DNA of 64,000 bases from Alphaproteobacteria bacterium. GTDB lineage: Bacteria > Pseudomonadota > Alphaproteobacteria > CAAHEQ01 > UBA3637. The position numbers and the translations under genes were made by a program. Where the stretch lies: the NCBI GenBank assembly GCA_017559525.1, contig JAFYRI010000012.1, positions 15,164-79,163 on the forward strand. The letters run 5' to 3'. Of the stretch, positions 12,246 to 13,787 are shown one piece after another. How positions within the stretch are numbered: the stretch's first letter is position 1; each line of letters starts with the position of its first letter. Below the pieces are notes generated by a model that saw only the letters and a program-made list of their open reading frames with translations, did no database searches and was not told where the DNA came from.

Positions 12246-13787
12246 TTACTTATTTAAATTAATGTTCCATGGTTGAGCATATTGTTCAATCCAACCGAGG
12301 TCCTTATCTCCAAAGGCAGAATAATTCGTATAAATTTTCCAATATCCATTGTCTTTATTATATTGAATATATAATGCCATATAATATGAATAATGAGCTT
12401 TTTTATTATTGTGAAAATCTATTCCATCTTTATTTAATCTAACAGAATATACATACTTAGTGAAAACATTATTATCAATTATGTATGCTGTATCTTTTTT
12501 GTAATGTTTAGAAAAATCAACGGGAAGATATGTTCTTAAAATATCTAATGCTTTATTTACATCAAGTGTATTGGCAAATTCTTTATTATAAATTTTTATT
12601 TCAACAGCTCCCAAGAATTTACCGTGAGTTGGGTCTTTTTCTAAATATAAAATATTTGTATCATCCGTTTCTTTTGTTAAAGACCAATCTATTCTTGCTT
12701 TTTCTTCTACCTCTAATGCCTTTATTCTATCATCATTTATCTTTTTTTTAAAATTAACGACACTATCAAACGAATCTCCAATCTTTGGATGGTTTTCAAT
12801 ATTTATAATCTCTGATATATGTAATTGTTTTTTAGACACTTCCTTAATAGTGTCAATATTTTCAATTTGTTTTGTTTCTTTTGTCTTTATTTTACCTTGA
12901 TGTATTCCTGTATATAATCCAAACAAAATAAAAAATATAATAGCTAAAATAAATCTTTTTTTACCAAATAGTTGCTTATTTCCTATTGGGGTAATAAGAA
13001 AACCCAAAATTCCATAGCAAATACCAGATATTACTGACGCTTCATTTGTAGATATAAACATTGGGACAGATAACATCATTATAAAACCGATAAAGTATCT
13101 TAAAAATGTAAATTTCGTAGTTGTGTTTGTTTTTATATTTTTAGATTCTATTAGTAATCTAATTTCTTTTTTAGCATCATCATATGCTTGTTGTAATTCA
13201 GGTGTAATGAGTTTCTGACTATCTAAATATTCATCATACATATCCACTTCATCTACATATGAACTAAGAATAGTGTTTATAAATGCTACAATATATTTTA
13301 TTACATTTTCATCGGCTACAATATTTTTAGATTTATTTCCTGATTGTAATATAAAAGAGTTTTTGGCAGATATTTTACAAGCTGTTAATTTATCAACTTT
13401 AAATTCAAAATTTCCTTTCTCCGCAACAAATACAACTCTTTTATTTGTAATTATTAAATCACCATCAATAAATTCTCTTACATTTTCTCTTATTGGAGTT
13501 CCTTTTCTTGCTCCTTGATGTATAGTTAGACCTTTTGCTATTCTTACACTTGTTCCTGCATAACCTCCTGAATATCTTACAATTTTTTCTTTATCATTAT
13601 ATATAAATATTTTAGAAGCATAAACAATAAATTCTCTTTTTTGTAAAGCAAAACCGTCATAATAAATTTCAGGAAACCCCATATTTAATATAAACGGTAA
13701 TATATCAGCATATTCATTTGCTTTATTGACTTTTACAACTTCTAAAACATCATCTTCTGTAAGTTGTAGGTGTGGTTTCATATCCAT
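12246..13787 (-). CDS. membrane protein with an N-terminal bacterial-PH-like domain, a central 3-4 TM block and a C-terminal extracytoplasmic domain
   Basis: 513 aa. DGDLIITNKRVVFVAEKGNFEF resembles bPH/GRAM-type PH domains. Hydrophobic block FLRYFIGFIMML...ILAIIFFILFGLY. DNA is extremely AT-rich. Confidence 0.45.
   Translation of the reverse strand: MDMKPHLQLTEDDVLEVVKVNKANEYADILPFILNMGFPEIYYDGFALQKREFIVYASKIFIYNDKEKIVRYSGGYAGTSVRIAKGLTIHQGARKGTPIRENVREFIDGDLIITNKRVVFVAEKGNFEFKVDKLTACKISAKNSFILQSGNKSKNIVADENVIKYIVAFINTILSSYVDEVDMYDEYLDSQKLITPELQQAYDDAKKEIRLLIESKNIKTNTTTKFTFLRYFIGFIMMLSVPMFISTNEASVISGICYGILGFLITPIGNKQLFGKKRFILAIIFFILFGLYTGIHQGKIKTKETKQIENIDTIKEVSKKQLHISEIINIENHPKIGDSFDSVVNFKKKINDDRIKALEVEEKARIDWSLTKETDDTNILYLEKDPTHGKFLGAVEIKIYNKEFANTLDVNKALDILRTYLPVDFSKHYKKDTAYIIDNNVFTKYVYSVRLNKDGIDFHNNKKAHYSYYMALYIQYNKDNGYWKIYTNYSAFGDKDLGWIEQYAQPWNINLNK

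What the first reader, a model, noticed from the sequence alone, without database searches (positions are those of the whole stretch)
12246..13787. Islet cargo gene: PH-domain-like cytoplasmic N-terminus, TM block, extracytoplasmic C-terminal domain of unknown fold
The only gene in the tRNA-Pro islet encodes a 513-aa protein. Its N-terminal region (ITNKRVVFVAEKGNFEF) resembles bacterial PH (bPH/GRAM-like) domains. A hydrophobic block of 3-4 helices sits at about residues 225-300. The 210-aa C-terminal domain is Lys/Asn/Tyr-rich and matches nothing I can recognise. Single-gene membrane proteins with a small sensing module carried on tRNA-associated islets are often abortive-infection or defence proteins, or effector/immunity proteins. 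This is the best candidate here for an undescribed single-gene system.
Basis: inference. Interest (0 to 1): 0.55.

Follow-up and report, generated by a model that had tools for sequence, protein, structure and literature searches.

The report
Mobile membrane protein, likely phage-exclusion type
A 2-kb piece of foreign DNA inserted at a proline tRNA gene carries one intact gene for an undescribed membrane protein; its relatives sit in prophages, beside restriction enzymes and on conjugative elements, so it probably protects the cell against incoming phage or mobile DNA, but no experiment shows this yet.

Summary
The ORF at 12246-13787 (-) encodes 513 aa and is the only credible gene in a 2,023-bp low-GC islet (GC 0.26; flanks 0.35). 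The islet is bounded by a duplicated tRNA-Pro 3' end plus terminator.

- **Membrane block:** three TM helices follow. Most relatives have one, so the topology is the same.
- **Family:** it is modular. A profile search found 2,312 cluster representatives.
- **Selection:** one ortholog pair is under purifying selection (dN/dS 0.09).
- **Contexts:** 3 of 10 independent full-length contexts lie within about two genes of restriction-modification systems. Others lie by transposases, recombinases or ICE genes, or in single-gene low-GC islets.
- **Short forms:** 2TM + N-domain forms are prophage morons, found in tail modules and next to a repressor.
- **Partner:** no neighbouring gene is conserved.

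My best reading is a stand-alone, mobilome-borne membrane protein acting against incoming phage or MGE DNA, more likely by exclusion than by abortive infection. The structure and the mobile context are well supported; the mechanism is inferred.

The parts
12246..13787 (-). CDS, 513 aa: cytoplasmic PH-like domain, 3 TM helices, extracytoplasmic C-terminal domain
   Evidence: ORF list. An identical protein, P0001 'hypothetical protein IKV03_05700, Alphaproteobacteria bacterium MAG', is on 9 contigs in the same context. No Pfam, PADLOC, NCBIfam or PHROG hit.
13254..13640 (-). PH-like core of the N-domain (residues ~50-178): 7 strands plus a C-terminal helix
13500..13568 (-). Gly/Arg/Lys-rich loop between strands 1 and 2 (residues 74-96, GGYAGTSVRIAKGLTIHQGARKG), the most conserved stretch of the family
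   Evidence: Holds many of the invariant or near-invariant columns of A1 and A5: G74, G78, S80, R82, K85, G86, G92, G96. Low pLDDT in the model. It sits where canonical PH domains bind ligand (Xu et al. 2010, PMC2817789); ligand binding here is inferred.
12900..13112 (-). Three hydrophobic TM helices (residues ~226-296)
   Evidence: Hydropathy scan and helices in the AF2 model. Only P0002-P0004 share the extra helices; the 28 other full-length relatives checked have one TM at the same position.
12249..12827 (-). C-terminal extracytoplasmic alpha/beta domain (residues ~321-513), no fold relative found
13792..13798 (-). Shine-Dalgarno AAGAGGT, 4 nt before the ATG
   Evidence: Read directly from the sequence.
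11942..12018 (+). tRNA-Pro (TGG), the insertion target
   Evidence: ARAGORN; Rfam tRNA 61.9 bits.
12013..12057 (+). Left direct repeat: last 6 nt of the tRNA plus an A-tract and terminator hairpin (12024-12055). It can terminate both the tRNA and the convergent islet gene.
   Evidence: the repeat finder family D1; core 18-mer 2 hits against 0.01 expected; terminator scan.
14036..14080 (+). Right direct repeat: displaced copy of the tRNA 3' end (CGACCA) plus a terminator-like hairpin with a different stem sequence
   Evidence: That the stems differ while the hairpin is kept is read.
12019..14035 (.). Low-GC islet (~2.0 kb) with no integrase and no other gene
   Evidence: GC profile; ORF list; nothing in Rfam beyond the tRNA.

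Best explanation
The islet is horizontally acquired DNA that inserted, or is the remnant of a larger insertion, at the 3' end of tRNA-Pro. It carries one intact, self-sufficient gene.

The product is a cytoplasmic-membrane protein of an undescribed modular family with three parts:
- a cytoplasmic PH-like domain, whose glycine- and arginine/lysine-rich strand1-strand2 loop is the best-conserved stretch of the family;
- an odd number of TM helices;
- an extracytoplasmic alpha/beta domain with no known fold relative.

The family belongs to the mobile 'conflict' gene pool of gut and rumen bacteria. I think it most likely acts alone as a membrane-level barrier to incoming phage or mobile-element DNA, in the manner of superinfection exclusion.
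- The variable, swappable outer domain would provide specificity, by binding a phage tail or ejection component or the envelope structure the phage uses as an entry port.
- The conserved PH-like domain at the inner leaflet would be the core working part, as it is in the minimal 2TM + PH-like prophage versions.

Shown: gene integrity, domain structure, topology logic, modularity, purifying selection on one ortholog pair, mobile and RM-linked contexts, absence of a conserved partner.

Inferred: the anti-phage/anti-MGE role (about 0.6) and the exclusion mechanism (about 0.35, the confidence given below).
For: - **Foreign origin.** GC is 0.257 against 0.348 in the flanks. The repeats contain the tRNA 3' end. 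The same compositional signature recurs in other hosts: L007 0.41/0.58, L010 0.34/0.51 with sharp edges, L014 0.33/0.42, L033 0.43/0.51.
- **PH-like fold.**
- **Topology.** It is conserved with 1 or 3 TM helices.
- **Functional gene.** dN/dS is 0.09 overall and 0.05-0.15 per domain between the P0004 and P0003 genes.
- **Full-length contexts.** MmeI lies immediately upstream with ICE genes (DUF3848, DUF3991-Toprim, T4SS coupling protein) around the gene. Two C5-MTases, an AAA_5 ATPase and RE_LlaJI lie upstream in an element shared by at least 3 genomes. A Dam MTase, RE_AlwI and IS66 lie upstream in another locus. Other loci have IS1595, two serine recombinases, and a WYL-WCX regulator with an AAA_5 ATPase.
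- **Short 2TM + N-domain forms.** They lie between the tail tube and the tail assembly chaperone in two different myovirus-like prophages. In Bordetella phages the gene lies two genes downstream of the repressor and in the same orientation; homology is confirmed by hhalign, probability 98.5%. A 247-aa N-domain + TM form (no C-domain) lies beside an integrase, HaeIII RM and an AAA_21 ATPase.
- **Stand-alone gene.** Immediate neighbours are unrelated to one another across loci.
- **Division of labour.** The N-domain is more conserved than the C-domain: 37-68% against 21-52% identity. The C-domain is replaced in relatives by an F5/8-type C domain and other domains. The C-domain itself pairs with other small cytoplasmic heads, DUF4236 and zinc ribbons.
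- **Precedents.** The lactococcal prophage exclusion protein Sie285 is a PH-like + SHOCT protein (PMC6127208; sequence). PH-like domains replace the TM anchor in some homologs of the membrane nuclease SNIPE. Some relatives here fuse the N-domain to a NERD nuclease-related domain.
Against: - There is no experimental phenotype for any family member.
- PADLOC has no model for the protein, and no cultured phage carries a full-length copy.
- The neighbourhood statistic rests on about 10 independent full-length contexts, with no genome-wide background control.
- One context is the end of a glycosyltransferase cluster. One C-domain relative sits in an ordinary chromosomal neighbourhood.
- Similarity to Sie285 is at motif level only (hhalign probability 18%).
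- The window islet has no integrase, and no empty site was found. All 9 contigs carry the islet, so recent mobility is not shown.
- In Gram-negative hosts such as this one the C-domain is periplasmic, not surface-exposed, so it could not block adsorption.
- The 'viral' label of three IMG/VR contigs is not backed by structural phage genes.
Confidence: 0.35

Rival explanations
1. Single-gene abortive-infection effector. The PH-like domain senses a phage cue or ligand at the inner leaflet, the protein oligomerises, and the TM helices (with PH rings) permeabilise the membrane. The infected cell dies or stops growing.
For: - The mobilome and RM-island contexts fit this reading as well as they fit exclusion.
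- The minimal 2TM + beta-rich cytoplasmic domain resembles known TM effectors such as Cap15 (recalled from the literature, not tested here).
- Xu et al. 2010 proposed that membrane-anchored bacterial PH domains form oligomeric rings or pores.
- The position next to a phage repressor matches where lambda rexAB lies (my knowledge).
Against: - Most family members have a single TM helix.
- A large, folded and conserved extracytoplasmic domain is not needed for a cytoplasmically triggered pore.
- No cyclase or other signal-generating partner is conserved nearby.
Confidence: 0.2
2. Envelope sensor or surface-maintenance protein with no role in conflict. The outer domain binds a wall or polysaccharide component and the PH-like domain recruits cytoplasmic partners. 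The mobile contexts would reflect niche-adaptive cargo in general.
For: - P0004 and P0003 lie at the end of a glycosyltransferase cluster.
- Relatives swap in carbohydrate-binding-type outer domains, F5/8 type C.
- Many conserved aromatic residues in the C-domain could bind glycans; this is inference.
- B. subtilis bPH_1-type (PF08000) PH protein YozO responds to envelope stress.
Against: - The distribution is sporadic, with foreign GC in at least 5 host backgrounds.
- The gene is repeatedly adjacent to RM systems and recombinases.
- Short forms lie inside prophage tail and immunity modules.
- No envelope-biosynthesis partner is conserved.
Confidence: 0.15
3. Orphan immunity protein against an extracytoplasmically acting interbacterial toxin (T6SS/T7SS/CDI type). 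The C-domain would neutralise the toxin outside the cytoplasm.
For: - Orphan immunity genes are known to travel in islets (my knowledge).
Against: - No toxin or secretion gene is conserved next to any homolog.
- The best-conserved part of the protein is the cytoplasmic PH-like domain, which immunity to an outside toxin would not need.
- Short forms lack the outer domain altogether.
Confidence: 0.07
4. Entry (surface) exclusion or another transfer-related function of conjugative elements, left behind in the window as a remnant of a decayed element.
For: - In L016 the homolog sits among ICE genes: DUF3848, DUF3991-Toprim, T4SS coupling protein.
- The window islet has att-like repeats but no integrase, as expected for a decayed element.
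Against: - Only 1 of 10 contexts is an ICE.
- Prophage and RM-island contexts do not fit this reading.
- The one ortholog pair tested (in a glycosyltransferase-cluster context, not an islet) shows strong purifying selection on the gene.
Confidence: 0.08

Closest known systems
Membrane-anchored bacterial PH (PHb) domain proteins: DUF304/DUF1200 (now Pfam bPH_2; the YdbS/YdbT examples are from my knowledge), DUF2244 and bPH_3, as outlined by Xu et al. 2010 (PMC2817789)
   Same: A cytoplasmic PH-like beta-sandwich is tethered to the membrane by TM helices. The GRAM/GLUE-like 'G-x-L-x-[IV]-T-N-x-R' strand motif is shared. They co-occur with SHOCT and TM2 domains and zinc ribbons. PHb genes are also noted in phage lysogeny modules.
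   Different: No Pfam bPH, GRAM or GLUE model reaches threshold on this protein or its relatives. This family has an unusually long, conserved, basic strand1-strand2 loop, whereas Xu et al. describe a short hairpin in PHb domains. It also carries a folded extracytoplasmic domain.
Lactococcal prophage superinfection-exclusion protein Sie285 (bIL285 Orf2) and the Sie2009 group
   Same: A PH-like protein carried by a mobile element and credited with excluding superinfecting phage (PMC6127208). Sie285 is PH-like + SHOCT, an architecture also seen in this family in P0139. The Bordetella phage relative occupies the same kind of lysogeny-module position.
   Different: Only motif-level similarity: hhalign probability 18% over 29 columns. 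I see no TM helix or outer domain in the Sie285 sequence. The window gene is not in a prophage.
SNIPE (PD-lambda-1), the membrane-bound nuclease that cuts phage DNA during injection (bioRxiv 10.1101/2025.11.03.685801; Nature 2026, PMC13190303)
   Same: A single-gene defence acting at the cytoplasmic membrane. Some SNIPE homologs use an N-terminal PH-like domain instead of a TM helix. Relatives of the window protein fuse the N-domain to a NERD nuclease-related domain (P0082, NERD 22.8 bits against a 22.1 cutoff; P0088 only 16.4 bits, below it).
   Different: The window protein has no DUF4041, no GIY-YIG and no other nuclease domain. It has an extracytoplasmic domain that SNIPE lacks.
Phage morons for membrane proteins that block DNA entry, such as HK97 gp15 or P22 SieA (from my own knowledge, not tested here)
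   Same: Small inner-membrane proteins encoded as extra genes inside tail or immunity modules of temperate phages. The 2TM + N-domain relatives sit in just such positions.
   Different: No sequence or fold comparison was made. The window protein is much larger and chromosomal.
tRNA-targeted integrative islands
   Same: The islet abuts the tRNA 3' end, is bounded by a repeat containing the tRNA terminus, and has deviant GC.
   Different: It is only 2 kb, has no integrase or excisionase, and only 6 nt of the tRNA are duplicated. No empty site was observed.

Membership tests
PH-like fold superfamily (PH/GRAM/GLUE/PHb) | Seven-stranded beta-sandwich of two sheets capped by a C-terminal helix | tested here: met
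Pfam bacterial PH families (bPH_1 PF08000, bPH_2 PF03703, bPH_3 PF14470) or GRAM/GLUE | Score above the family's gathering threshold | tested here: not met
   The best hits are Vps36 GLUE at 15.9 bits against a 24.1 cutoff and bPH_3 at 14.6 against 23, in P0088 only. None of the 12 members of A1 reaches a threshold. Precomputed Pfam is '-' over the N-domain in all hits.
Known anti-phage defence systems (PADLOC-DB 2.0) | Match to any defence-protein model | tested here: not met
   0 families at E ≤10 for the window protein. 0 for the NERD-fused relatives P0082 and P0088.
Defence-island / mobilome-associated gene (operational definition) | Homologs recurrently adjacent to defence or mobility genes in unrelated genomes | tested here: met
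   RM systems lie within about two genes in 3 of 10 independent full-length contexts: MmeI, LlaJI, AlwI. A further full-length locus has a WYL regulator and an AAA_5 ATPase, and a 247-aa N-domain + TM relative lies near HaeIII RM. Mobility genes or att repeats occur in 5 of 10. Short forms lie in prophages. The sample is small and there is no background control.
Lactococcal Sie (Sie285 / Sie2009-type) exclusion proteins | Sequence homology to a characterised Sie protein | tested here: not met
   hhalign of the N-domain profile against bIL285 Orf2 gives probability 18%, E 0.0013, over 29 columns around the ITNxR motif only.
Lactococcal Sie (Sie285 / Sie2009-type) exclusion proteins | Blocks phage DNA injection without affecting adsorption | not testable with these tools
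   Needs phage challenge, adsorption and DNA-entry assays.
SNIPE / PD-lambda-1 | DUF4041 plus a GIY-YIG nuclease downstream of a membrane anchor | tested here: not met
   No Pfam hit of either kind. The architecture is described.
tRNA-integrated genomic island | Insertion at a tRNA 3' end with flanking direct repeats and deviant composition | tested here: met
tRNA-integrated genomic island | Own integrase, or an empty site in related genomes | tested here: not met
   There is no other ORF in the islet. All 9 contigs that carry the flanking genes also carry the islet.
Interbacterial-toxin immunity proteins (Mog1/PsbP-like, DUF1795-like sandwiches) | Clear fold match and an adjacent cognate toxin | tested here: not met

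The most novel reading that the evidence does not exclude
The protein is the prototype of a new single-gene, outside-in immune sensor. A novel-fold extracytoplasmic domain would detect phage tail contact or envelope breach. It would signal through the membrane to a previously unclassified PH-like module that is itself the effector. In relatives the same module is deployed as a prophage moron, or wired to a NERD-type nuclease domain or an FtsK-gamma-like DNA-binding tail.
Probability: 0.12. Interest if true: 0.8.

Novelty: new variant of a known kind. Interest (0 to 1): 0.55.

Why it matters
Two uncharacterised domain families are involved.

- The PH-like N-domain family has 2,312 cluster representatives at E ≤0.001 and no Pfam model.
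- The C-domain has no fold match and is combined with DUF4236 and zinc-ribbon heads.

Both are spread through gut and rumen bacteria on prophages, ICEs and restriction islands. If the exclusion or defence role is confirmed, it would add a new stand-alone membrane-level system. It would also give a function to a whole class of '[small cytoplasmic head]-TM-[variable outer domain]' proteins that are abundant in Firmicutes and currently unannotated. It would extend the emerging theme, seen in SNIPE and Sie285, that bacterial PH-like domains mark the membrane site where foreign DNA enters. If the role is not confirmed, the gene remains a well-delimited example of single-gene horizontal cargo at a tRNA.

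Tried and rejected
- **N-domain loop as a DUF4236 relative.** I suspected this because both show a G-x-S-x-R-[IV]-x-K-G pattern, but hhalign gives probability 0.2%. Rejected.
- **26-nt inverted repeat at 12067-12092 / 13955-13980 as terminal repeats of a mini-element.** The arms are 77% complementary, and 91 comparable pairs occur in the same 2.7 kb of AT-rich DNA. Treated as chance, although Logan contigs break near both arms (see noticed).
- **Conserved partner gene.** All-against-all BLASTP of 26 immediate neighbours from 13 loci (window included) found no shared family, apart from the same element seen twice.
- **tRNA association of the family.** No homolog sits next to a tRNA in any of 16 other loci; L010 and L017 have tRNA genes more than 7 kb away.
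- **Flanking repeats around the single-gene islets in L010 and L014.** None convincing.
- **Structured RNA in the islet.** Only the tRNA passes Rfam thresholds.
- **DNA or protein similarity to cultured phages.** None for the islet or the full protein. Plasmids gave two weak N-domain hits, in Moraxella and Yersinia.
- **Sequence match to solved structures.** None significant for the whole protein or the N-domain profile.
- **Other limits.** AFDB fold libraries were unavailable. The word-indexed homolog search badly under-samples the family: 12-25 hits against 2,312 by full HMM scan.
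Full report
**1. The observation**

The ORF at 12246-13787 on the minus strand starts with ATG and encodes 513 aa. An AAGAGGT ribosome-binding site lies 4 nt upstream of the start.

tRNA-Pro(TGG) lies at 11942-12018 on the plus strand. It is convergent with the ORF.

GC falls to 0.24-0.29 between about 12000 and 14500, against 0.33-0.42 on both sides. The gene is 0.257 and the flanks 0.348. Nothing else in the low-GC stretch is a credible gene, and Rfam finds only the tRNA.

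- The copies are at 12013-12057 and 14036-14080, 2,023 bp apart.
- The 18-nt core, CGACCA(A/T)TAGAAAAAAAG, begins with the last six bases of the tRNA.
- The core occurs exactly twice in 64 kb, against 0.01 expected by chance.
- Each copy continues into a hairpin followed by a T-run, but the stems differ in sequence.
- The left hairpin (12024-12055) has A- and T-tracts on both sides. It can therefore terminate both the tRNA and the islet gene.

This is the signature of insertion at a tRNA 3' end. There is no integrase, and I found no empty site: all nine public contigs that carry either flanking gene also carry the islet. The source is a ruminant-gut 'Alphaproteobacteria bacterium' MAG.

**2. 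The protein**

No Pfam, NCBIfam, PADLOC or PHROG model reaches threshold. The only hints are sub-threshold hits to the Vps36 GLUE domain, which is a PH variant.

The poorly modelled loop between strands 1 and 2 reads GGYAGTSVRIAKGLTIHQGARKG. It is the most conserved stretch of the whole family. It occupies the position of the classical ligand-binding loop of PH domains (Xu et al. 2010). That it binds a ligand here is inference.

*Membrane block.* Three hydrophobic helices follow, at about 226-246, 250-269 and 277-296. Twenty-eight other full-length relatives have a single TM helix at the same place. Only the closest three (P0002-P0004) share the extra pair. The number of helices is always odd, so the two globular domains always lie on opposite sides of the membrane.

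**3. The family**

The word-indexed search finds 12 relatives. A full profile scan finds far more:

| E-value cutoff | cluster representatives |
|---|---|
| 1e-3 | 2,312 |
| 1e-10 | 612 |
| 1e-30 | 93 |

The two domains also occur apart.

The N-domain is found in these architectures:
- behind two TM helices, in proteins of about 230 aa;
- behind a TM2 domain;
- with a SHOCT domain (Pfam-confirmed for P0183; read by eye in P0139);
- with an FtsK-gamma-like tail (my reading of the alignment; no Pfam scan confirms it);
- before a TM helix plus an F5/8-type C domain or other outer domains;
- fused to a NERD nuclease-related domain in soluble ~765-aa proteins. P0082 scores 22.8 bits against a 22.1 cutoff; P0088 scores 16.4 bits, below the cutoff.

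The C-domain is found behind DUF4236, behind double zinc ribbons, or behind a bare TM anchor.

The general design is therefore [small cytoplasmic head]-TM-[variable outer domain].

Within the full-length group the N-domain is more conserved than the C-domain: 37-68% against 21-52% identity to the window protein.

The gene is under purifying selection in all three parts. Between the P0004 and P0003 orthologs dN/dS is 0.09, with dS 0.60. One metagenomic copy, L045, is frameshifted.

**4. Genomic contexts**

After removing duplicates there are ten independent contexts for full-length homologs:

| # | Locus | Context |
|---|---|---|
| i | window | tRNA-Pro islet |
| ii | L001/L013 | end of a glycosyltransferase cluster |
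| iii | L007 | beside IS1595; GC 0.41 vs 0.58 |
| iv | L010 | single-gene islet between housekeeping genes of a Firmicute; GC 0.34 vs 0.51, sharp edges |
| v | L014 | three-gene low-GC islet between an enoyl-ACP reductase and Ham1 |
| vi | L016 | immediately after an MmeI-type RM gene, inside an ICE (DUF3848, DUF3991-Toprim, T4SS coupling protein) |
| vii | L017-type | after two C5-methylases, an AAA_5 ATPase, RE_LlaJI and a phrog_4031 protein; element shared by at least three genomes |
| viii | L029 | near two large serine recombinases on an IMG/VR contig |
| ix | L033 | between a sigma factor and AAA_5 ATPase on one side and a WYL-WCX regulator on the other; GC 0.43 vs 0.51 |
| x | L062 | after IS66, an HTH_17 protein, a Dam methylase and RE_AlwI |

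A pooled scan of 107 neighbour proteins had DNA methylases and restriction enzymes as its most frequent families.

The shorter forms, which lack the C-domain, are even more clearly mobile:
- In two different myovirus-like prophages the 2TM + N-domain gene sits between the tail tube and the tail assembly chaperone.
- In Bordetella phages vB_BaM-IFTN1 to -7 it lies two genes downstream of the repressor and in the same orientation. The homology is confirmed (hhalign probability 98.5%, E 2e-15).
- In rumen Clostridia a 247-aa N-domain + TM form abuts a tyrosine integrase, HaeIII RM and an AAA_21 ATPase.

No neighbour family is shared across loci, so the gene works alone. Proximity to a tRNA is peculiar to the window.

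**5. What it most likely does**

*Shown:* this is an intact, selected, horizontally mobile, stand-alone membrane protein, and its relatives live in prophages, ICEs and restriction islands.

*Inferred:* it acts in conflict with incoming phages or mobile DNA. I put this at about 0.6.

Within that, I favour a barrier at the membrane (superinfection-exclusion type, about 0.35) over abortive infection (about 0.2). My reasons:
- Most members have only one TM helix, which makes a poor pore.
- A large, folded, variable and swappable outer domain suggests recognition of something outside the cytoplasm.
- The minimal prophage versions sit in the positions where exclusion morons are typically found.

Literature precedents point the same way.
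- The lactococcal prophage exclusion protein Sie285 is described as a PH-domain protein (PMC6127208). Its sequence is indeed PH-like + SHOCT. It is not detectably homologous to this family beyond the ITNxR motif (hhalign probability 18%).
- Some homologs of the membrane nuclease SNIPE use PH-like domains for membrane targeting.
- Xu et al. 2010 predicted that membrane-anchored bacterial PH domains oligomerise into rings at the membrane, and noted them in phage lysogeny modules.

An envelope-sensor role, an orphan-immunity role and an ICE entry-exclusion role remain possible but fit fewer observations. They are set out under the rival explanations.

**6. Comparison, novelty and verdict**

By fold the N-domain belongs to the PH-like superfamily. 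It fails the thresholds of every curated PH family and differs by its long conserved basic loop. The C-domain has no known relative. The protein is not a member of any catalogued defence system.

I classify it as a new variant of a known kind: mobile, single-gene membrane proteins of the phage/MGE conflict repertoire built on a bacterial PH-like domain.

Interest is moderate to fairly high (0.55). The structural and contextual case is solid, and two large unannotated domain families are involved. Function is still inferred from association.

The main weaknesses are the small number of independent contexts, the lack of a background control, the lack of an empty site, and the absence of any phenotype.

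Noticed in passing
window 6389-6825: The last ~19 nt of tRNA-Thr (AATCCGACAACCGGCACCA) plus its terminator hairpin occur three times, at 6389-6441, 6581-6633 and 6773-6825. TRF reports period 192, 2.2 copies, 96% identity. The ~140-nt G+C-rich units between the copies match no Rfam family above threshold. So a second tRNA gene in this window carries att-like duplications.
   Followed up: partly
window 6848-9325 (-): An 825-aa ORF lies just downstream of the tRNA-Thr repeats. It is low in GC (0.29-0.35), carries an in-frame 69-nt tandem repeat at 8609-8747, and has only a weak HD-domain hit. It may be another piece of acquired cargo.
   Followed up: no
window ~12070-12099 and ~13956-13985: In sample SRR12529248 the Logan assembly splits the locus into three contigs (L061, L028, L025). 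By my coordinate mapping they overlap by about 30 nt, just inside both islet edges. This may indicate strain heterogeneity or an alternative arrangement of the islet. A 26-nt imperfect inverted repeat lies at the same two places (pair I6), but such pairs are common in this AT-rich DNA.
   Followed up: partly
L076 3707-4396 (Bordetella phage vB_BaM-IFTN1 gene _47): The gene is annotated 'TerB family tellurite resistance protein', but it is a 2TM + N-domain homolog (hhalign probability 98.5%, E 2e-15). It sits in the immunity region downstream of the repressor. I did not test the deposited TerB annotation against a TerB model.
   Followed up: yes
L065 8001-8729 and L070 8001-8756: 2TM + N-domain genes occupy the same slot in two different myovirus-like prophages of gut Firmicutes, between the tail tube (DUF2001) and the tail assembly chaperone (Phage_TAC_5). 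This is either a conserved moron site or an unrecognised phage function.
   Followed up: partly
L031 8017-9969, L017 8077-9969, L019 8017-9969: A 630-650-aa protein of PHROG 4031 (unknown function; weak CapP-like metallopeptidase hit, E 1.7e-5) lies 10 nt upstream of the homolog in the LlaJI-linked element, just after the restriction genes. It could be a lineage-specific partner.
   Followed up: partly
P0082, P0088 (no locus): Soluble ~765-aa proteins combine the PH-like N-domain with a NERD nuclease-related domain. P0082 scores 22.8 bits against a 22.1 cutoff; P0088 scores 16.4 bits, below it. Neither has a PADLOC hit. They are possible membrane-targeted nucleases in the style of SNIPE.
   Followed up: partly
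window 14972-16500 (-): An Endonuclease_1 gene and an ADP-ribosylglycohydrolase gene lie back to back just right of the islet. An ADP-ribosylglycohydrolase also lies two genes from the homolog in L033. This is probably coincidence.
   Followed up: no
L078 285-737 (Moraxella osloensis plasmid NZ_CP068110.1): An unannotated stretch on a mobilizable plasmid encodes a weak N-domain match (E 7e-6). It lies next to a VWA-domain gene and IS5/IS3 transposases.
   Followed up: no
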